A program made the translations under genes and the position numbers. Shown here piece after piece: positions 1,026 to 64,000 of a stretch of DNA of 64,000 nucleotides. The notes beneath the pieces were generated by a model, which saw nothing but the letters and a program-made list of their open reading frames with translations, was not told where the DNA came from and searched no databases. Each line of letters starts with the position of its first letter. The stretch's first letter is position 1. The stretch spans positions 3,911 through 67,910 of the forward strand of contig JAUSJC010000005.1 of NCBI GenBank assembly GCA_030647775.1. The letters run 5' to 3'. The DNA comes from Candidatus Curtissbacteria bacterium. GTDB taxonomy: Bacteria; Patescibacteriota; Microgenomatia; Curtissbacterales; GWA2-41-24.

Positions 1026-1160
1026 TTAACAGTCAGCCAAAAATTACTTGCAATCACTTGTTCCCGCTATGAAACGCCGATCTTAATATTCTTATTTTTG
1101 TACATTCGTATCTTTATTACAACTCTTTATTACAACTAAAACTTTTATTCTATTTTCTTT

Positions 1161-1180
1161 TCGATTATTCGAATAATCGA
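1161..1180. promoter_or_regulatory. perfect 20-bp palindrome TCGATTATTCGAATAATCGA immediately 3' of the TrpR-like gene
   Basis: Read directly: reverse complement is identical to itself; a second copy of the core is at 1652-1669. Confidence 0.6.
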
Positions 1181-1183
1181 AAA

Positions 1184-1672
1184 TTACAAAGCTTCAAGTT
1201 GTCTTTTTCGTCTAGCAATAACCTTACTGGCCTGACTCTTCCTCTGCCAAGCACTAGAACCGTACATTTTCTGCGGCGAAAGCTGGATCAAAAGTTCCTC
1301 GAGGTTATTCCAAAACTTCTGGTTTTTCTCTTGGGCAAGAACGTGTTTAATTGCTTTCTGGTAACCTTGCGCTCCGGTTGAAATTTGTCTATGCACCATA
1401 CCAACAGTCGACTTAGAAACTTTTAACGTTTCATCTATCTCTTCATAATTAAATCCGCGGGCAAGAAGAACAGCAATCGCAAGTCTTTTGGAAAGCATCA
1501 CTTGTTCAGTATTAGAAAGCAGACTTTGCAGAAATTCTTTTATCCCAAGAGGGGTCTTAAGAGTAGCCAAGTAATCCCGAAATATCTCAAAAATCCGTTC
1601 TTCGATCTGGGGATTTATCTTCCTTTTTGACACTCGTCCCATCCTATACCAATTATTCGAATAATCGAACAA
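1184..1672 (-). CDS. TrpR/YerC/YecD-like small DNA-binding protein (paralog 1 of 3)
   Basis: Motif LSKRLAIAVLLARGFNYEEIDETLKVSKSTVGMV matches the Trp-repressor-like YerC/YecD HTH family. The ORF-track start is TTG, so the true start is probably the internal ATG (MGRVSKRK...) near 1642. Confidence 0.6.
   Translation of the reverse strand: MFDYSNNWYRMGRVSKRKINPQIEERIFEIFRDYLATLKTPLGIKEFLQSLLSNTEQVMLSKRLAIAVLLARGFNYEEIDETLKVSKSTVGMVHRQISTGAQGYQKAIKHVLAQEKNQKFWNNLEELLIQLSPQKMYGSSAWQRKSQASKVIARRKRQLEAL
1652..1669. promoter_or_regulatory. palindrome ATTATTCGAATAATCGAA in the promoter/5' end of the TrpR-like gene (putative operator)
   Basis: Same palindromic core as at 1161-1180; lies immediately upstream of the probable true start codon. 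Confidence 0.5.
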
Positions 1673-1785
1673 AATGTCAATTAATCAATAGCACTATTTC
1701 AAAAATTATTTATTTCCAGAATGAAAAGCCTTGTACGCCCTTCGACTTCACTTCGCATTCGCTCAGTGTGAACGCTCAGGGTAAA

Positions 1786-8374: not shown

Positions 8375-8536
8375 GTATATTTAACTTTCGGCCTCGCATT
8401 TTAGCAAAAAGGGGCAACCGAATCAACCCAAAGTCCGCGATCCAACAACATTCAAATCGCCTTTTTAATTAAGTTCGGGATATCTTCAAAATTTCTATTA
8501 CTCTGTATCACTGATTTAAATCACTAAAACAAAATT

Positions 8537-8971
8537 TTATTTCCTTGATTTCCGGCTACGGATTATCGCTTCAAGCTCCTCATCACTCTTAAATGCTCTT
8601 CGGCCGCCGCCTGTAAATCGCAAAAGCACCAGTTCCATATCGTGCCAAAACTTTTGCCAACCCTCTATTTGCTCTAACTTTTTCAGAAACAGGCGCCATC
8701 CGTCATCTTCTATGTTCGATGAAACCCTTCCTATCGTATCAACAGAAACTTTTAAAATATCCCGAATCGAACGGTAGTCATAACCCTTATAAAGCAAAAT
8801 CGCAATAGACATTCTTTTGGCAAAATTTACTTTTTCAGTTTTTGTAAAAAAGTCGCTGAAGAAGATAGAAACTTCTTTTTTCTTCTTTAAGTTAGCCATA
8901 ACTGACCAGAAAGAATCGAAAACCTTATTTTCAATCTCTTTTGTCAATTGTCTTCTAGAAACCTGACTCAT
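8537..8971 (-). CDS. TrpR/YerC/YecD-like small DNA-binding protein (paralog 2 of 3)
   Basis: FAKRMSIAILLYKGYDYRSIRDILKVSVDTIGRV aligns with the HTH of the ORFs at 1184-1672 and 40848-41279. Confidence 0.6.
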   Translation of the reverse strand: MSQVSRRQLTKEIENKVFDSFWSVMANLKKKKEVSIFFSDFFTKTEKVNFAKRMSIAILLYKGYDYRSIRDILKVSVDTIGRVSSNIEDDGWRLFLKKLEQIEGWQKFWHDMELVLLRFTGGGRRAFKSDEELEAIIRSRKSRK

Positions 8972-9060
8972 TTTGTACCGACGATTCGAATCAACAGTAC
9001 ATTACAATCCACCTTCTTGTCAAGACAGGACTATATAAACTTTGAGGTAAAGAAAAAGTA

Positions 9061-20116: not shown

Positions 20117-20131
20117 ATTACTCTTTCTACT

Positions 20132-20557
20132 TCAATGATTCGAATCATCGAAGTATTTAGGCTCGAATTTTACTAAAATTACAAAAATTAATATTAAAAT
20201 TCCTATTGTCACCGCGCTGTCTGCCAAATTAAAGCTCGGCCAGAATTTCAAATCAATAAAATCACGGACGCAACCCATCATCAACCGGTCTAAAATATTA
20301 GAAACTCCTCCGGCAACAATAAGCGCCAAAGCCAAAGAGATAATTTTCCTTTCTTGTCTTAACAGAAAATAGAAACAGACACTAACTACGACAATCGGCA
20401 CAATAAAATTTAAGATTCTCGCATTTTGAAAAAGCCCAAACGCGATTCCACTGTTACAGCTTGTGGCCAGCCTCGCCGAGTCTAGATGGACAAATTTTGC
20501 TTTAGAAACTTGGTCGAGAAAAATAATAAGCGGAATGATGAAAAGGGACAAACGCAC
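20132..20557 (-). CDS. lspA: lipoprotein signal peptidase II
   Basis: NSGIAFGLF and FNLADSAVTIGILILIF motifs; four TM helices. Confidence 0.85.
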   Translation of the reverse strand: MRLSLFIIPLIIFLDQVSKAKFVHLDSARLATSCNSGIAFGLFQNARILNFIVPIVVVSVCFYFLLRQERKIISLALALIVAGGVSNILDRLMMGCVRDFIDLKFWPSFNLADSAVTIGILILIFVILVKFEPKYFDDSNH

Positions 20558-40245: not shown

Positions 40246-40761
40246 CTACTTCTTTCCTTTTGCTTTTGGCGCTTTACTTGTCGATTTTACCGGTTTTGCC
40301 TCTTTTTTGGAAGTTGTGACCTTAGTGGTAACTGTTACTTTCGGCTTAACCTCCACCTTCGGCTCTTCCTTCTTTTCACTTTGCCTGCCCGCCAAAGCCT
40401 TGGTGTCGGCGGGGCTTTCGACTTTGCCTGCCCGTCCCCCTGGCGGGACTTTCGACTTTGACTTTCTTTGCGGTTTTACTTTAATTAAGAGGTGTCTCAA
40501 AACCGCTTCCTGCTCCAGCCTTATCTTTCTATCAAGCGCCAAAATCTCTGCCGGATCCGCGTCAAAATTAAACAGGAAATATTCTGCCTCTGTTTGTTTG
40601 GCAATCTTATATGCCAGAGGCTTTTTGCCCATCTTTTCGCTTTTTACATTTTGGGCATTGGCTTCCTTCAAAAACTTCTCGACCCTCTCGAAAAGCGCCG
40701 CCGCGCCGTCAACAGTCCCAACAACAATAAGTTCGTACATGGAGGAAATGATATCAGACAC
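40246..40761 (-). CDS. rpsF: 30S ribosomal protein S6 with lysine-rich C-terminal extension containing repeat-derived sequence
   Basis: MYELIVV...KPLAYKI...EAEYFLFNF is the S6 core; the tail (VPPGGRAGKVESPADTKALAGRQ) is encoded by the GC-rich repeat at 40376-40440. Confidence 0.8.
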   Translation of the reverse strand: MSDIISSMYELIVVGTVDGAAALFERVEKFLKEANAQNVKSEKMGKKPLAYKIAKQTEAEYFLFNFDADPAEILALDRKIRLEQEAVLRHLLIKVKPQRKSKSKVPPGGRAGKVESPADTKALAGRQSEKKEEPKVEVKPKVTVTTKVTTSKKEAKPVKSTSKAPKAKGKK

Positions 40762-40811
40762 CTAAGTTTAATTCAATAATTAAGGTTTAGCCTAATGATT
40801 CCTTTATCTGT

Positions 40812-40840
40812 CTTGACTCATACTAATATACTTGTATACT
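40812..40840 (+). promoter_or_regulatory. sigma-70-type promoter TTGACT-N17-TATACT placed 7 nt upstream of the ATG (near-leaderless), overlapping a 14-bp motif ATATACTTGTATAC
   Basis: Hexamers and 17-nt spacing read directly; the same 14-mer recurs at 41285-41298 just after the stop. Confidence 0.5.
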
Positions 40841-40847
40841 AGTATTT

Positions 40848-41279
40848 ATGCCCAGAGCATCTAAATACAAACTCACTACCACAAAATTAACAGAACTCGA
40901 AAGCCATTTCTCTTATCTCATATCTTCTTTGAATAAACCTGGGGATATAAAATTGTTCTTTGATGAATTTTTAACAAGTGAAGAAAAACTAATGCTAACA
41001 AAGCGTCTGGTTCTTATAATGATGCTGAAAAGAGATTACCCGGATTATGTCTGTCAAGGCGCCCTCCATATCAGCTACGAAACTGTAAGGAATTACAAAA
41101 TTTATCTCAACCATAAATCTCAAGCATTCGACAAAACAATAGATCGACTAATCAGTAGACAAAAAACTAGAGAGTTATTTGAAAAAATTGATAAGGTTTT
41201 AAAACCGTTAGAACTCGCTCTAAAGTCTGGAACAAATATGAAGGCTCGAGCAAAATTCGCCTCGGGCGATTGGACTTAA
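40848..41279 (+). CDS. TrpR/YerC/YecD-like small DNA-binding protein (paralog 3 of 3)
   Basis: LTKRLVLIMMLKRDYPDYVCQGALHISYETVRNY aligns with the HTH of the other two paralogs. Confidence 0.6.
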   Translation: MPRASKYKLTTTKLTELESHFSYLISSLNKPGDIKLFFDEFLTSEEKLMLTKRLVLIMMLKRDYPDYVCQGALHISYETVRNYKIYLNHKSQAFDKTIDRLISRQKTRELFEKIDKVLKPLELALKSGTNMKARAKFASGDWT

Positions 41280-41303
41280 CACAGATATACTTGTATACCT
41301 AGT

Positions 41304-42392
41304 TCAAACACTGAAACGAAATTCCACTACCATCCCGTCTTTTATCGCCTCTGTCTTCCCAATTGTTTTAATTTTCCCTTGATCTTTGGCGTTCTTCCAC
41401 CCCCCACAACCCACAAGCTCTTCCCAATCTATTACTTCCGCCGCGATAAATCCCCTTTCAAAATCGGTATGGATTACTCCCGCCGCTTGTGGTGCCAATG
41501 CTCCTTTTTGAGTCGTCCAAGCACGAACTTCCTTCGGCCCGGCCGTAAGGAATGTAATCAGGCCTAAAGTTTCATAAGCCTTCTTTATTAATATATTCAA
41601 GCCTGGCTCGGCAACTCCAAGCTCGGCTAGATACAACTTTTGCTCTTCCGCATCAAGACTCGCCAAATCTTCCTCCGTCTTGGCACATATTCTCACTTCG
41701 TTGTCATTGCGAGGAGCTTGCGACGAAGCAATCTCTTCCTCGTCACTATTCAAAACAATGATGGATTTTTTAGTCGACAACAGTTGTAGATCCTTTATCT
41801 TTTCCAGCTCATCATTATCCAAATTTTCCTCAAGCCACTTCCCTTGCTCAATCAGTCCTTTTGCTTTTTGAAGCACTGCAGCCGCCTGATGTCTTGGATC
41901 TTGGACAGTAGCTGACCTTAATTCTTTGTTTAAAGTTTCAAGTCTCTTGTTTATTGTTTCTAAGTCTTTGAGCATCAGCTCCGTTTTTAAAACCTCAAGG
42001 TCGCTTTTTGGGTTCTCGCTCCCCGCCCGCACAATATCTTCATTCTTAAAATCCCTTAGGACAAAAACAATTACATCCACTTCGCGGATATGAGAAAGGA
42101 ATTGGTTACCCAACCCTTCACCAGAAGCGGCACCCTTAACCAAACCTGCAATGTCCACAAAAGAAACCGTCGCCGGAATTATCTTAAAGTTCGGACCCAA
42201 ACCTTCTGTCTTCTCGACAATTTCTTTTAACTTTTCAAGCCGCTCATCCGGCACTTCGCAAACGCCGACGTTTGGCTCAATCGTCGCAAACGGATAGTTA
42301 GCCGAAAGCGCCACCTGCTTCTTAAGAAGCGCATTAAAAAGCGTCGACTTCCCCACATTCGGAAGCCCAACAATTCCCACAGAAAGATTCAT
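41304..42392 (-). CDS. ychF: ribosome-binding ATPase YchF (Obg-like GTPase family)
   Basis: IVGLPNVGKSTLFNALL P-loop, a coiled-coil insert and C-terminal TGS domain. Confidence 0.9.
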   Translation of the reverse strand: MNLSVGIVGLPNVGKSTLFNALLKKQVALSANYPFATIEPNVGVCEVPDERLEKLKEIVEKTEGLGPNFKIIPATVSFVDIAGLVKGAASGEGLGNQFLSHIREVDVIVFVLRDFKNEDIVRAGSENPKSDLEVLKTELMLKDLETINKRLETLNKELRSATVQDPRHQAAAVLQKAKGLIEQGKWLEENLDNDELEKIKDLQLLSTKKSIIVLNSDEEEIASSQAPRNDNEVRICAKTEEDLASLDAEEQKLYLAELGVAEPGLNILIKKAYETLGLITFLTAGPKEVRAWTTQKGALAPQAAGVIHTDFERGFIAAEVIDWEELVGCGGWKNAKDQGKIKTIGKTEAIKDGMVVEFRFSV

Positions 42393-43034: not shown

Positions 43035-43156
43035 CAAAAACGTGAGCTTGGAAACTAAGGTCGTGGTTCTCTGATTTCCTGCCTGCCGGCAGGCAAGGTC
43101 GATCAAAATAAATTATCGGCACTCCAAGCAAGACATAATTCATATAGGAAATAATT

Positions 43157-61744: not shown

Positions 61745-63095
61745 TTTTTATGACTTTCCATTTTGAACCTTCGAACGTATCTTCAATCACTACACCCATT
61801 TCCAAAAGTTCTTCGCGTATTTTATCACTTTCTTCAAAATTTCCCGCCTTCCTCAATTCCTCTCTCTCATCAATTAGTTCCTTTGCCCCTTTTGGCAAAA
61901 CCGCTTTTTTAATTTCTCCAAGTCCAAGCCCCAAAACCTCATCCATTACCAAAATTGACCGGTGCTTTGCCGAAGTCGGGTTATCGCTTTTTACCGTTTC
62001 CCACATTATCGCGATGGCCCTCGGCATATCCAAATCGTTATTGACGGCGTTTTTGAAATCGTTCTCCAGCCCCGCGCATCCGATTTTTGGATCATCCCAA
62101 GTCGCAATCTGATCACGCAAATTGGAAAGAGCGTTTTGCGCCGCCTCCAAACTTTCCCAAGTGAAATTTAATTTAGAACGATAGTGTGCGGTCAAAAATA
62201 AATACCGGAGTGCAAGCGGCTCAAAACCCTGCCTGCCGGCAGGCAGGCCTTTTTTAATAACATCACTAAGCGTATAAATATTTCCAAGGCTCTTTGACAT
62301 CTTTTGCCCGTCTACTAAAAGATGTTCTCCCTCCAACCAAAAGTTTACAAACTTCTTACCCGTTGCCGCCTCGCTTTGGGCAATTTCGTTTTCGTGGTGT
62401 GGAAACAAAAGATCGACACCGCCGCAATGGATATCAAAATGCTCGCCCAGTGCCTCCATACTCATTGCGCTGCATTCAATATGCCAACCAGGCCGACCCT
62501 CACCAAACGGCGCCGGCCAACTGGGCTCTCTATCTTTTTTATTTTTCCAAAGCGCAAAATCACTCCAAGATTCTTTGTCGTATAAATCGTCGTTAATTCT
62601 TGCGCCTTTTTTTAACTGGCGCTTTTCTAAACCAGAAAGCTTTCCGTAATCCGGAAATTTTTCAACCGAAAAATAAACTCCGTCATCCGCCTTGTAAGCA
62701 AAACCTTTATCCAGAAGCACTACGATGATTCGTATCATCGTAGTGATATTTTCTGTTGCTCGAGGATACTCATTTGCTCTTAAGATATTTAGTTTCTCAA
62801 GATCCTCAAAAAACGCTCTTTCGTATTTTGCAGTTAAATCTCTTAACTCTAAACTCTCATCTCTCGCCCTCTTTATAATCTTGTCATCAATATCCGTAAT
62901 ATTCATTACATGATTGACTTTGTAACCATCAAAAGTTAGGGCTTTTTTTAAAACGTCTTCAAAGACAAACGTCCGCCAGTTGCCAATGTGCACATAGTCG
63001 TAAACCGTCGGGCCGCAGGTATACATACCGACTTTGCCATCGACAATCGGCTTAAACTCCTCAACTTTCTTGGATAAATAATTGTAAAGTTTCAT
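61737..63095 (-). CDS. cysS: cysteinyl-tRNA synthetase
   Basis: HIGN, class I KMSKS (KMSKSLGN) and zinc-binding Cys residues; carries an ~8-aa insert encoded by the GC-rich palindrome at 62227-62249. Confidence 0.95.
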   Translation of the reverse strand: MKLYNYLSKKVEEFKPIVDGKVGMYTCGPTVYDYVHIGNWRTFVFEDVLKKALTFDGYKVNHVMNITDIDDKIIKRARDESLELRDLTAKYERAFFEDLEKLNILRANEYPRATENITTMIRIIVVLLDKGFAYKADDGVYFSVEKFPDYGKLSGLEKRQLKKGARINDDLYDKESWSDFALWKNKKDREPSWPAPFGEGRPGWHIECSAMSMEALGEHFDIHCGGVDLLFPHHENEIAQSEAATGKKFVNFWLEGEHLLVDGQKMSKSLGNIYTLSDVIKKGLPAGRQGFEPLALRYLFLTAHYRSKLNFTWESLEAAQNALSNLRDQIATWDDPKIGCAGLENDFKNAVNNDLDMPRAIAIMWETVKSDNPTSAKHRSILVMDEVLGLGLGEIKKAVLPKGAKELIDEREELRKAGNFEESDKIREELLEMGVVIEDTFEGSKWKVIKNE

Positions 63096-63163
63096 TTCGA
63101 GTTTACGAGAAACAAGCCCTCTTCAGGCCCGCAGTTGAGTTTCGCTCAACGAAGACCGCAAGC
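63095..63163. repeat. family-C unit immediately followed by a family-A unit
   Basis: ATTTCGAGTTTACGAGAAACAAGCCCTCTT then GGCCCGCAGTTGAGTTTCGCTCAACGAAGACCGCAAG (hairpin GTTGAG/CTCAAC). Confidence 0.6.
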
Positions 63164-63170
63164 TTTCTGC

Positions 63171-63575
63171 TTATTCCGCCCCCATGTTCTTGATCTCTGC
63201 GTTTGCTTTCGTTTGCGCAACAGTAACATCCATCGATTGTCTCTTCTGCTCGCGAGTCAGTTCAGATTTTTGAGCCTCCGCTTGTTTTACCTGCTGTTCT
63301 TCCGCCATTTCCTTTCTTTTTCGCTTCTGGGAATGCTGGGCGTATATTGCGGCGATCCTTGCTTTAACTTCTTCCTGGCCCTGTTCACTAAACTCCTTAT
63401 CTTTCTTGCCCATGGAAACAATATCGTCATCTGTAGGGGCTTGTTTATTTTGGCTTCCGGTAACTTGTCCAACCACTGACTTCCCGATTTCTTTAATCTC
63501 GCTGCCAACTTCACCCAAAACATCGCCAATTACAGAACCGACCCCATCACCGTCCATATAAGCTAATTGTAGCAA
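63171..63575 (-). CDS. hypothetical charged protein
   Basis: ORF track only; K/E/Q-rich C-terminal half. Confidence 0.4.
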   Translation of the reverse strand: MLQLAYMDGDGVGSVIGDVLGEVGSEIKEIGKSVVGQVTGSQNKQAPTDDDIVSMGKKDKEFSEQGQEEVKARIAAIYAQHSQKRKRKEMAEEQQVKQAEAQKSELTREQKRQSMDVTVAQTKANAEIKNMGAE

Positions 63576-63584
63576 GAAATGTAG

Positions 63585-64000
63585 TCAGTAGTCCTTGCGG
63601 CCTTCGATGGCGCGGCGCAAAGTTACCTCATCGGCATATTCCAGCTCCGCACCGATTGGAATCCCCCGGGCAATCCTTGTCGTTTTAATTCCCAAGGGTT
63701 TTGTTAAGCGTTGGATATACATCGCCGTCGCTTCCCCTTCCATTGAAGGGTTCGTCGCTAAAATTAATTCCTTAACTTCTAGGGTCCGACCCTTTTCAAC
63801 ACCGCTTTTCGCATTACTGGAATCCGATTTTGCAAGGGTCGGACCCTTGAGTCTTGGCAAAAGCTCGTTAATCCTGAGTTCCTCCGGCCCGATATTGTCC
63901 AGTGGCGCGATTACCCCATGCAAAACATGGTAAAGCCCGCCAAAACTTCCGGATTTTTCAATCGCCCAAACGTCTAGCGGATCCTCAACGATACAAATAA
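63585..64000 (-). CDS. recR: recombination protein RecR (5' part lies beyond the window), carrying an in-frame ~21-aa insertion
   Basis: The frame is open to the window edge ([43 protein letters not shown] = RecR Cys4/HhH region) and continues into the Toprim domain [19 protein letters not shown]. The insert [26 protein letters not shown] is encoded by paired palindromes at 63783-63853. Confidence 0.8.

What the first reader, a model, noticed from the sequence alone, without database searches (positions are those of the whole stretch)
1161..1669. Each of three TrpR/YerC-like paralogs is bracketed by a matched pair of short palindromes
The three TrpR/YerC-like genes (1184-1672, 8537-8971, 40848-41279) all have short palindromic motifs at both ends. 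Paralog 1 has a perfect 20-bp palindrome TCGATTATTCGAATAATCGA just past its stop (1161-1180), and the same core ATTATTCGAATAATCGAA sits in its promoter (1652-1669). Paralog 3 has ATATACTTGTATAC overlapping its -10 element (40827-40840) and again right after the stop (41285-41298). Paralog 2 has GATTCGAATC upstream (about 8982-8993) and TGATTTAAATCA downstream (about 8507-8518). A related 12-bp perfect palindrome TGATTCGAATCA sits at the lspA/rluA junction (~20127-20138). Motif pairs flanking a tiny regulator gene on both sides suggest autoregulatory operators that loop or clamp the gene. They could instead be recombination sites of a small mobile regulator cassette.
Basis: seen in the sequence. 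Interest (0 to 1): 0.65.

Follow-up and report, generated by a model that had tools for sequence, protein, structure and literature searches.

The report
Regulator genes bracketed by own operators
In this uncultivated Curtissbacteria (CPR) genome, and across its relatives, each small TrpR-like regulator gene has a copy of its own 26-bp palindromic binding site directly before the start codon and directly after the stop codon, so promoter, gene and both sites form one compact regulator unit.

Summary
All three TrpR-like genes carry palindromes at both ends (a few coordinates are slightly off; paralog 2's pair is degenerate). In 78 homologous genes from other Microgenomates genomes, 62 share an exact word of 12-33 bp between their upstream and downstream flanks. 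The figure is 2 of 264 for neighbouring genes.

The site is a 26-bp dyad. Its centre lies about 16 bp before the start codon and about 16 bp after the stop codon. The 5' copy overlaps the spacer and -10 of a consensus-like promoter for a leaderless mRNA, which predicts autorepression. A recognition-helix residue covaries with the central bases of the site, which argues for cognate binding. The 3' copy has no -35 box, no U-tract and no G-U bias. I read it as a second protein-binding site: either a roadblock at the gene boundary or a loop anchor.

Single "orphan" sites occur at other gene junctions and inside coding sequences. Paralog 3 with both sites is a roughly 550-bp insertion absent from close relatives, so the unit can relocate, but nothing shows that the palindromes are recombination sites.

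Verdict: a new variant of a known kind; interest moderately high.

The parts
1184..1642 (-). Paralog 1, a TrpR-like regulator of 152 aa (real start is the ATG at 1642; stop codon at 1184-1186)
   Evidence: Pfam PF01371, 43.6 bits. 100% identical to an NCBI 'Trp family transcriptional regulator' from Candidatus Curtissbacteria. AF2 model with TrpR fold.
1646..1671 (.). Paralog 1, 5' site. 26-bp frame; perfect 14-bp core at 1652-1665; 18 bp (1652-1669) identical to the 3' copy.
   Evidence: Dyad centre 16 nt before the ATG.
1652..1680 (-). Paralog 1 promoter: -35 TTGACA at 1680-1675, 17-nt spacer, -10 AATAAT at 1657-1652, then 9 nt to the ATG (leaderless or nearly so)
   Evidence: Promoter scan, 11 of 12 matches. 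The same layout is found in orthologues L001-L009.
1158..1183 (.). Paralog 1, 3' site: perfect 26-bp palindrome TTTTCGATTATTCGAATAATCGAAAA, directly abutting the stop codon, between convergent genes
   Evidence: No U-tract and no terminator call. As RNA it forms only a -9 to -10 kcal/mol hairpin.
8537..8971 (-). Paralog 2, a TrpR-like regulator of 144 aa
   Evidence: Pfam PF01371, 48.2 bits.
8975..9000 (.). Paralog 2, 5' site (gene strand GTACTGTTGATTC|GAATCGTCGGTAC; 10 of 13 pairs), ending 3 nt before the ATG
8505..8530 (.). Paralog 2, 3' site (gene strand GTTTTAGTGATTT|AAATCAGTGATAC; 10 of 13 pairs), 6 nt after the stop codon
40848..41279 (+). Paralog 3, a TrpR-like regulator of 143 aa
   Evidence: Pfam PF01371, 25.9 bits, just under the cut-off of 27. 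Its orthologue clusters carry PF01371.
40820..40845 (.). Paralog 3, 5' site ATACTAATATACT|TGTATACTAGTAT (11 of 13 pairs), ending 2 nt before the ATG
   Evidence: The clade consensus is ATACTAATATACTAGTATATTAGTAT.
40813..40840 (+). Paralog 3 promoter TTGACT-16-TATACT, then 7 nt to the ATG (leaderless)
   Evidence: The same TTGAC box precedes the site in L209-L212.
41279..41304 (.). Paralog 3, 3' site (degenerate, 8 of 13 pairs; exact 14-mer at 41285-41298). It fills the whole 24-bp gap between the convergent stop codons of paralog 3 and ychF.
   Evidence: No RNA hairpin.
40757..41306 (.). Block present in the window but absent from the closest relative, where ychF runs directly into rpsF. It holds paralog 3, both sites and the promoter.
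   Evidence: ychF-rpsF are also adjacent in L204, L206, L207 and L208.
20129..20154 (.). Orphan site of the family type, ACTTCAATGATTCGAATCATCGAAGT (12 of 13 pairs). It overlaps the lspA stop codon; its centre is 24 nt before the rluA-like start codon.
62719..62744 (.). Orphan site of the family type, ACTACGATGATTCGTATCATCGTAGT (12 of 13 pairs), inside the cysS coding sequence. It is in frame (ITTMIRIIVV) and shows no indel against solved CysRS structures.

Best explanation
Each TrpR-like protein is a dimeric helix-turn-helix repressor that recognises its own 26-bp palindrome. Each arm is 13 bp, with an inner block such as ATGAT, two variable positions, and an outer triplet such as ACT.

The 5' copy covers the spacer, the -10 and the short stretch down to the ATG of a strong sigma-70-type promoter that makes a leaderless mRNA. 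Binding there shuts off the regulator's own synthesis (negative autoregulation).

The 3' copy, placed 0-6 nt after the stop codon whatever the orientation of the next gene, is a second cognate binding site with no promoter. I think it most likely acts as a protein-dependent boundary (roadblock). It would stop polymerases leaving the gene toward downstream or antisense neighbours, and stop convergent polymerases from entering. Together with the 5' copy this makes promoter-site-ORF-site a self-contained, self-insulated unit that can sit inside dense gene arrays.

The same proteins also act at single sites elsewhere, at cistron junctions and inside coding sequences.

Shown directly from sequence: the sites, their geometry, their specificity to these genes, the promoter overlap, the protein-site covariation, and the relocation of the unit. 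Inferred: binding, repression and the roadblock role.

My estimates: about 0.8 for cognate binding plus 5' autorepression; about 0.4 for the roadblock or boundary role of the 3' copy (looping about 0.3). The overall confidence of 0.55 is for the model as a whole.
For: - Family-wide bracket: 62 of 78 genes against 2 of 264 control genes.
- Fixed geometry: dyad centre at -13 to -22 from the start and +11 to +20 from the stop.
- Promoter overlap in the window. TTGACA-like boxes peak at -22/-23 from the dyad centre in upstream copies (15 of 52, plus 4 at -35). Downstream copies show only background, 4 of 44 on either strand.
- The residue before the invariant Thr of the recognition helix tracks the central tetranucleotide: P with ATAT, S with ACGT/TCGA, G with TCGA, A/T with TTAA. 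Mutual information is 1.51 bits, and 0 of 5000 permutations reach it.
- Within the syntenic recA-linked orthologue group, both copies changed together with the helix.
- TrpR fold: Foldseek against 3kor, 3g1c, 3frw and E. coli TrpR. TrpR-family HisR/YerC binds 20-bp palindromes and is often autoregulated (PMC9413887).
- The 3' copy is present with co-directional (39 of 50) and convergent (13 of 20) downstream neighbours alike. In convergent pairs it fills the whole gap between the two stop codons.
- Orphan sites are single, mostly lack a -35 box, sit at cistron junctions or in coding sequence, and recur at orthologous places. This points to action on elongating polymerase.
- DNA-level rather than RNA-level constraint: complementarity is kept right up to the dyad axis, and G-T mismatches (14) are no more frequent than A-C mismatches (17).
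Against: - No binding, repression or roadblock has been measured; everything rests on sequence.
- A roadblock at the 3' end acts mainly when the protein is abundant, which is when its own promoter is already off. The benefit for the gene's own transcripts is therefore unclear.
- Only about a third of upstream copies show a near-consensus -35 box. Paralog 2 in the window has none at the expected place.
- The covariation test ignores phylogeny.
- Symmetric (compensated) differences between the two copies at arm positions 9-10 (20 compensated against 21 singly broken) are not predicted by simple dimer binding. They need an extra process such as quasi-palindrome template switching.
- Some asymmetries are shared by both copies in direct orientation (17 against 3). 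This points to DNA copying between the copies, not only to selection for binding.
Confidence: 0.55

Rival explanations
1. DNA looping. The 3' copy is an auxiliary operator. A dimer bound there contacts the dimer on the 5' operator (a dimer of dimers, perhaps through the two extra C-terminal helices). The roughly 480-bp gene is looped out and autorepression is sharpened, as with lac O1-O2/O3, gal OE-OI or lambda OR-OL.
For: - Pairs of sites are found only at the regulator genes. Target loci carry single sites in contigs of 5-14 kb.
- Centre-to-centre spacing is narrow, 466-504 bp with a median of 481. From general knowledge of DNA cyclisation, this is near the length at which looping is easiest.
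- The family has two C-terminal helices (residues 108-151) that TrpR and HisR lack.
Against: - The spacing shows no helical phasing (Rayleigh p about 0.3 at 10.5 bp).
- The last helix is strongly basic. It could equally explain the longer 26-bp site rather than tetramer formation.
- Looping gives no reason for the site to abut the stop codon when the intergenic space is about 150 bp, as for paralog 1.
- Oligomeric state is untested.
Confidence: 0.3
2. Mobile cassette. The palindromes are recombination sites, or the ends of a small mobile element, and the bracket is the footprint of integration. The regulator would be a selfish passenger, analogous to RAYT genes flanked by REPs or IS1 InsA binding its terminal repeats.
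For: - Paralog 3 with both sites is a roughly 550-bp insertion absent from five of seven close relatives.
- Its orthologues sit in four other contexts with the bracket intact.
- Asymmetric sites are mostly in direct orientation. Shared asymmetries number 17 direct against 3 inverted. Both window copies of paralog 3 carry the same non-palindromic CTTG centre, where the clade has CTAG.
- A tyrosine recombinase gene lies next to paralog 1.
Against: - The ORF has only the TrpR fold and no catalytic domain.
- Xer is adjacent in only 1 of the 80 genome loci, L049.
- Most orthologue groups keep housekeeping neighbours such as recA-recX, ftsX-M23 peptidase, metG and tsaD.
- The empty ychF-rpsF junction holds no site, and the rpsF-side boundary lies well outside the palindrome.
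- Orphan sites arose in place within coding sequences without indels.
- No relatives were found in viral contigs.
- The bracket has been kept through deep divergence while the surrounding intergenic DNA has not, which requires selection on both sites.
Confidence: 0.1
3. RNA-level elements. The palindromes act as hairpins in the transcript: a 3' terminator or stabiliser, and a 5' insulator against read-through. Their match to each other would reflect a shared structural requirement rather than protein binding.
For: - Perfect palindromes can fold. The paralog 1 3' copy gives -9 to -10 kcal/mol, z = -2.5, and the paralog 2 3' copy gives -10.4 kcal/mol, z = -3.6.
- Dyad symmetry is preserved at variable arm positions through compensated changes.
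- In convergent pairs the site sits where a bidirectional terminator would sit.
Against: - There is no U-tract, and the terminator scan calls none of the sites.
- Complementarity is strongest next to the dyad axis, where a loop would be.
- There is no excess of G-U-compatible mismatches: 14 G-T against 17 A-C.
- The 3' copy of paralog 3 does not fold (z = -0.16).
- With a leaderless promoter the 5' copy is not transcribed from the gene's own promoter.
- Site sequence covaries with the protein's recognition helix.
- Rfam finds nothing.
Confidence: 0.07
4. Chance, or a compositional artefact of AT-rich intergenic DNA.
For: The total count of perfect palindromes of at least 12 bp in the window (21) is close to what random sequence would give.
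Against: - The exact 14-mers occur only at the cognate flanks.
- Family-wide recurrence contrasts with the control genes.
- Shuffled sequence yields 1 palindrome of 26 bp against 89 observed.
Confidence: 0.01

Closest known systems
E. coli TrpR and its autoregulated trpR operator
   Same: Same fold (Foldseek TM-score to the target 0.7-0.8) and Pfam PF01371. In both, a dimer binds a palindromic operator that overlaps the core promoter of its own gene.
   Different: The site here is 26 bp rather than about 18-20 bp. The protein is 143-152 aa with two extra C-terminal helices. A second operator sits directly after the stop codon. There are several paralogs per genome with different sites. Scores for the TrpR equivalog TIGR01321 fall far below its cut-off.
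HisR (YerC) of Firmicutes, TrpR family (PMC9413887)
   Same: These are the closest solved relatives (3kor, 3frw, 3g1c). HisR has lineage-specific palindromic motifs and is autoregulated in about half of genomes.
   Different: HisR sites are 20 bp, were searched for only upstream of genes, and control histidine genes. The window proteins score below the YerC/YecD cut-off (30-37 bits against 42.2). The targets seen here are unrelated housekeeping junctions.
Repressors with auxiliary operators and DNA loops (lac O1/O2/O3, gal OE/OI, lambda CI OR-OL flanking cI)
   Same: Two cognate operators lie hundreds of bp apart. In lambda they lie on either side of the repressor gene.
   Different: There is no evidence here for tetramers or octamers and no helical phasing. 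The sites abut the ORF at both ends, and the layout is conserved across a whole paralogous family.
Roadblock repression by DNA-bound regulators (B. subtilis CcpA at intragenic cre sites, CodY, E. coli PurR in purB, LacI); from general knowledge, not tested here
   Same: Operator-like sites lie within or between genes, away from promoters. The window has one inside cysS and one at the lspA/rluA junction.
   Different: The effect on elongation is untested. Use of such a site as the standard 3' boundary of the regulator's own gene has not, to my knowledge, been described.
RAYT genes flanked by REP palindromes; IS1 InsA binding the terminal repeats of its own element
   Same: A small gene is flanked on both sides by the palindromes its product is thought to bind, further copies are dispersed in the genome, and the unit can relocate.
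   Different: There is no HUH or transposase domain. Dispersed copies are single, are conserved at orthologous positions, and evolved in place within coding sequences without indels. Most orthologue groups are syntenic.

Membership tests
Trp repressor superfamily (Pfam PF01371) | Profile match above the Pfam gathering score | tested here: met
   Paralog 1 scores 43.6 bits and paralog 2 scores 48.2 bits against a cut-off of 27. Paralog 3 scores 25.9 bits, just below, but its orthologue clusters carry PF01371.
Trp repressor superfamily (Pfam PF01371) | TrpR-like all-helical fold with a helix-turn-helix | tested here: met
   AF2 model with pLDDT 83. The best PDB matches are 3kor, 3g1c, 3frw and E. 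coli TrpR, with TM-score to the target 0.7-0.83.
YerC/YecD (HisR) family, NCBIfam TIGR02531 | Score above the curated cut-off of 42.2 bits | tested here: not met
   30.2 bits (paralog 1), 36.6 bits (paralog 2), no hit (paralog 3).
TrpR proper, NCBIfam TIGR01321 | Score above the curated cut-off of 67.25 bits | tested here: not met
   26.2 bits for paralog 2; no hit for the other two.
Autoregulated repressor | A cognate operator overlaps the core promoter of the regulator's own gene | tested here: met
   By sequence prediction only. Paralog 1 has TTGACA-17-AATAAT and paralog 3 has TTGACT-16-TATACT, each overlapped by its site. The family shows a -35 peak at -22/-23 from the dyad centre. Paralog 2 has no clear promoter.
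Autoregulated repressor | The protein binds the operator and lowers transcription | not testable with these tools
   Needs EMSA or footprinting and transcription assays. The only indirect support is helix-site covariation.
Looping repressor systems | Two or more cognate operators at the same locus | tested here: met
   54 of 79 genes have sites with at least 10 of 13 pairs within 60 bp of both gene ends.
Looping repressor systems | Helical phasing between the operators | tested here: inconclusive
   No periodicity near 10.5 bp. However, phasing is weak for loops of about 480 bp.
Looping repressor systems | Oligomerisation beyond the dimer | not testable with these tools
   Only a monomer model could be made.
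Mobile element (IS, MITE, RAYT/REP or integron cassette) | An encoded or adjacent transposase or recombinase | tested here: not met
   The ORF has only the TrpR fold. A Xer-type recombinase is adjacent to paralog 1 and, among the 80 genome loci, only in L049.
Mobile element (IS, MITE, RAYT/REP or integron cassette) | Presence/absence at orthologous positions, with element ends at the repeats | tested here: inconclusive
   Paralog 3 is absent from five of seven close relatives. However, the empty junction holds no site, and one boundary lies well outside the palindrome.
Mobile element (IS, MITE, RAYT/REP or integron cassette) | Dispersed copies arise by insertion | tested here: not met
   In-CDS copies are in frame and without indels: cysS in the window, and the FNDLNH peptide in unrelated enzymes.
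Intrinsic terminator or RNA hairpin | A stable stem-loop followed by a U-tract, and tolerance of G-U pairs | tested here: not met
   No terminator calls at the sites. No G-U bias, and pairing is kept up to the dyad axis. The paralog 3 3' copy does not fold.

The most novel reading that the evidence does not exclude
The TrpR-like genes of Microgenomates are self-contained, relocatable regulator modules (promoter, operator, ORF, operator). Their products act mainly as sequence-specific roadblocks. On this reading, a set of orthogonal DNA-binding 'punctuation' proteins stands in for terminators and internal promoters in the long co-directional gene arrays of these tiny genomes, and their sites are selected even inside coding sequences (for example the recurrent peptide FNDLNH, and the site inside cysS in the window). 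The bracket around each regulator gene would then be the signature of a module that insulates itself wherever it lands.
Probability: 0.2. Interest if true: 0.8.

Novelty: new variant of a known kind. Interest (0 to 1): 0.66.

Why it matters
CPR (Patescibacteria) bacteria are uncultivated, and almost nothing is known about how they regulate genes. My full-text searches found no description of this family or its sites.

Three things follow from the result:

- **A large regulator family with readable operators.** The family has about 1,500 clusters at 50% identity with E ≤ 1e-10. Its cognate operators can be read directly from the two ends of each gene, together with a first recognition code (helix residue against central bases).
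- **Regulons can be reconstructed from metagenomes alone.** The operators can be taken from each gene's flanks and searched for elsewhere.
- **Some features are unusual and testable.** A regulator gene bracketed at start and stop by its own sites across a whole paralogous family is unusual. So are operator copies selected inside housekeeping coding sequences, and the relocation of promoter, gene and both sites as a unit. All three raise questions about insulation and termination in minimal genomes.

Because the proteins are small and the sites are well defined, they could also serve as orthogonal repressor-operator pairs.

Tried and rejected
1. **dif-like or Xer recombination site.** Suggested by the tyrosine recombinase next to paralog 1. 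Rejected because Xer is adjacent in only 1 of the 80 genome loci.
2. **Intrinsic terminator or RNA hairpin.** Rejected: no U-tracts, no G-U bias, pairing kept up to the dyad axis, and the paralog 3 3' copy does not fold. Rfam found only a tRNA in the window.
3. **The 3' copy as operator of the next gene, or as an antisense promoter.** Rejected as a general explanation. It has no -35 box on either strand and is present with convergent neighbours.
4. **Phage origin.** No relatives in viral contigs.
5. **Helical phasing as a test for looping.** No signal, so uninformative.
6. **Integration into a pre-existing orphan site.** The empty ychF-rpsF junctions carry no palindrome.
7. **The 127-aa gene at the same junction in L205 as a diverged paralog 3.** It is unrelated.
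8. **Extending the contig beyond the window.** The look-up returned only a 3.9-kb copy.
10. **Window neighbours as synteny anchors for paralogs 1 and 2.** Apart from the Xer homologue in L049, no neighbour of any of the three paralogs was found next to a homologue in the 80 genome loci.
Full report
**What is there.** The window comes from a Candidatus Curtissbacteria (Microgenomates, CPR) contig. The paralog 1 protein is 100% identical to an NCBI 'Trp family transcriptional regulator'. Three genes hit Pfam Trp_repressor: 1184-1642(-), 8537-8971(-) and 40848-41279(+). They are only 24-32% identical to one another. The real start of paralog 1 is the ATG at 1642, by alignment with orthologues.

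- **Paralog 1.** A perfect 26-bp palindrome at 1158-1183 abuts the stop codon, and 18 bp of it recur at 1652-1669.
- **Paralog 3.** ATATACTTGTATAC occurs at 40826-40839 and 41285-41298, and nowhere else in 64 kb.
- **Paralog 2.** It has weaker, non-identical dyads at 8975-9000 and 8505-8530.

**Is it more than chance?** I fetched 80 loci with homologous genes from other Microgenomates and CPR genomes and modelled the genes.
- In 62 of 78 genes with full flanks, the 120 bp before the start and the 120 bp after the stop share an exact word of 12-33 bp. It is nearly always a palindrome.
- Permuted flank pairs give about 6%. Other genes in the same loci give 2 of 264.
- There are 89 palindromes of 26 bp with at least 12 of 13 pairs in 512 kb, against 1 after shuffling. 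Of these, 77 lie next to a TrpR-like gene.
- The bracket is therefore a conserved property of this protein family.

**Anatomy of the site.**
- The site is a 26-bp dyad with 13-bp arms: a conserved inner block (positions 3-7, for example ATGAT), variable positions 9-10, and an outer triplet (ACT, GCT or GTT).
- The upstream dyad centre lies 13-22 nt (mode 16) before the start codon, so the arm ends 1-3 nt from the ATG. The downstream centre lies 11-20 nt after the stop.
- Centre-to-centre distance is 466-504 bp with no helical periodicity.
- The sequence differs between subfamilies but matches within each gene. Examples are ATTATTC|GAATAAT for paralog 1 orthologues, ATGATAT|ATATCAT, ATGATTT|AAATCAT, ATGATTC|GAATCAT and ATATACT|AGTATAT for paralog 3 orthologues.

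**The 5' copy is a promoter operator.**
- For paralog 1 the scan finds TTGACA-17-AATAAT (11 of 12 matches), with the -10 inside the palindrome and 9 nt to the ATG. For paralog 3 it finds TTGACT-16-TATACT and 7 nt to the ATG. These are leaderless or nearly leaderless mRNAs.
- Across the family, TTGACA-like boxes peak at -22/-23 from the dyad centre in upstream copies (15 of 52, plus 4 at -35). Downstream copies show only background on either strand.
- A dimer bound over the spacer and -10 is the classical repressor position.

**Evidence that the encoded protein reads these sites.**
- The AF2 model has the TrpR fold plus two extra C-terminal helices. The closest solved relatives are the YerC/HisR-type proteins 3kor, 3frw and 3g1c.
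- HisR is a TrpR-family repressor with 20-bp palindromic, lineage-specific operators, and it is frequently autoregulated (PMC9413887).
- In the family studied here, the residue preceding the invariant Thr at the start of the recognition helix tracks the central bases. P goes with AT|AT, S with AC|GT (or TC|GA in the paralog 1 clade), G with TC|GA, and A/T with TT|AA. Mutual information is 1.51 bits, and 0 of 5000 permutations reach it, without correction for phylogeny.
- Within the syntenic recA-linked orthologue group, both flank copies changed together with the helix.

**What the 3' copy is not.**
- It is not an intrinsic terminator. There is no U-tract and the scan makes no terminator call at the sites.
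- It does not look like an RNA hairpin. Pairing is kept right up to the dyad axis, G-T mismatches are no more common than A-C mismatches (14 against 17), and the 3' copy of paralog 3 does not fold.
- It is not generally the operator of a downstream gene. It is present with convergent neighbours in 13 of 20 cases and with co-directional neighbours in 39 of 50 cases. In convergent pairs it fills the whole gap between the stop codons, as between paralog 3 and ychF.

**Orphan sites.**
- The window holds two further sites of the family type. One overlaps the lspA stop codon, with its centre 24 nt before the rluA-like start (20129-20154). The other lies inside cysS, in frame and without an indel relative to solved CysRS structures (62719-62744).
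- An unbiased metagenome scan for one site class found that 43 of 55 sites away from contig ends have no TrpR-like gene beside them. They are nearly always single in contigs of 5-14 kb.
- In a recurrent group, the stop codon of the upstream gene lies inside one arm and the next start codon 19-28 nt from the centre. Examples are sites upstream of tsaE, the gatA|gatB junction and an oxidoreductase subunit junction.
- Others lie inside real coding sequences, read in the palindrome's one open frame as F-N-D-L-N-H. These include glycosyltransferases, Xaa-Pro peptidase, FolD and SufS.
- So the proteins have targets elsewhere, targets carry one site, and the pair is specific to the regulator gene itself. 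Sites selected inside coding sequences and at cistron junctions, mostly without a -35 box, are most simply explained by action on elongating polymerase.

**Mobility.**
- Most orthologue groups keep housekeeping neighbours such as recA-recX, ftsX-M23 peptidase, metG, tsaD/rmuC and recR/cysS. That argues against frequent movement.
- Paralog 3 is different. In five of seven close relatives (YchF 73-84% identical) ychF runs directly into rpsF. The window has an extra block of about 550 bp holding the promoter, both sites and the gene. Two other relatives carry unrelated genes at the same junction.
- Four paralog 3 orthologues (58-62% identical) lie in four other contexts, each with the -35 box and the 26-bp site at both ends. 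The unit therefore relocates as a whole.
- The empty junctions carry no site, one insertion boundary lies outside the palindrome, and the gene encodes no recombinase. I find no evidence that the palindromes are the recombination sites.
- There is evidence for copying between the two copies. Asymmetric positions are shared in direct orientation 17 times against 3 inverted. Both window copies of paralog 3 carry the same non-palindromic CTTG centre, where the clade has CTAG.
- Compensated symmetric differences at arm positions 9-10 suggest an additional symmetrising process such as quasi-palindrome template switching. That mechanism is my inference.

**Conclusion.**
- The best-supported model is a compact autoregulatory module. 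The 5' operator represses a leaderless promoter, and the 3' operator is a second cognate site at the gene's end.
- For the 3' copy I lean towards a protein-dependent boundary or roadblock (about 0.4) over a loop anchor (about 0.3). My reasons are the behaviour of the single orphan sites and the way the site abuts the stop codon. Neither role is demonstrated.
- The proteins belong to the Trp-repressor superfamily but not to the YerC/YecD or TrpR equivalogs.
- The family is large, with about 1,500 clusters at 50% identity with E ≤ 1e-10. I found no description of it in the searchable literature.

Noticed in passing
window 62228-62247 and 43078-43097; also L010 2946-2961, L028 5022-5037, L138 4261-4276, L140 3223-3238: A GC-rich palindrome CCTGCCTGCCGGCAGGCAGG recurs in the window and in other CPR genomes. 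The copy inside cysS encodes GLPAGRQG, which is an in-frame 8-codon insertion relative to a solved CysRS. This resembles the palindromic elements that insert in frame into genes in Rickettsia (a resemblance from memory, not tested).
   Followed up: partly
metagenome loci L086, L091, L099, L105, L117, L119, L120, L126, L128, L135, L136, L139, L147, L150, L158, L161: The AT-rich site ..TTTAATGATTTAAATCAT.. lies inside genuine coding sequences of unrelated enzymes (GT4 glycosyltransferases, Xaa-Pro peptidase, FolD, SufS, a Mur-ligase-like protein). It is always read as the peptide F/L-N-D-L-N-H, and it recurs at the same position in orthologues from different samples.
   Followed up: partly
window 40757-41306; L202 4073-5683; L205 4206-4589: The ychF-rpsF junction is a hot spot for insertions. 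It is empty in five relatives, holds paralog 3 in the window, an AAA ATPase in L202, and an unrelated 127-aa gene in L205. All three inserts are oriented against the flanking genes.
   Followed up: partly
window 1111-1136: A perfect 13-bp tandem duplication, TCTTTATTACAAC twice, lies in the 158-bp spacer between the LapA-like gene and the 3' site of paralog 1.
   Followed up: no
window 1627-1656 (+ strand): A second promoter-like match (TTGACA-18-AATTAT) points away from paralog 1 out of its first codons. The TTGACA is the reverse complement of the conserved V-S-K codons at the N-terminus of the family.
   Followed up: no
L052 2176-2202, 2780-2806 and 3697-3723: Three copies of ACTTTAATGATTTAAATCATTAAAGT bracket the TrpR-like gene and then the next gene, a 294-aa protein of unknown function whose last codons (FNDLNH) are the third copy. 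This is the only case seen of a non-regulator gene bracketed in the same way.
   Followed up: partly
L001, L003, L008, L009 and many other loci from TPA assemblies: Many contigs that carry these CPR-type genes are titled 'uncultured Gammaproteobacteria' or 'Candidatus Saccharibacteria' in the public records. The organism labels look unreliable.
   Followed up: no
window 63096-63587: In Levybacteria a TrpR-like gene sits between recR and cysS. In the window the same interval holds only a small basic protein (63171-63575), and no palindrome is evident in the short recR-side spacer, while cysS itself carries an orphan site.
   Followed up: partly
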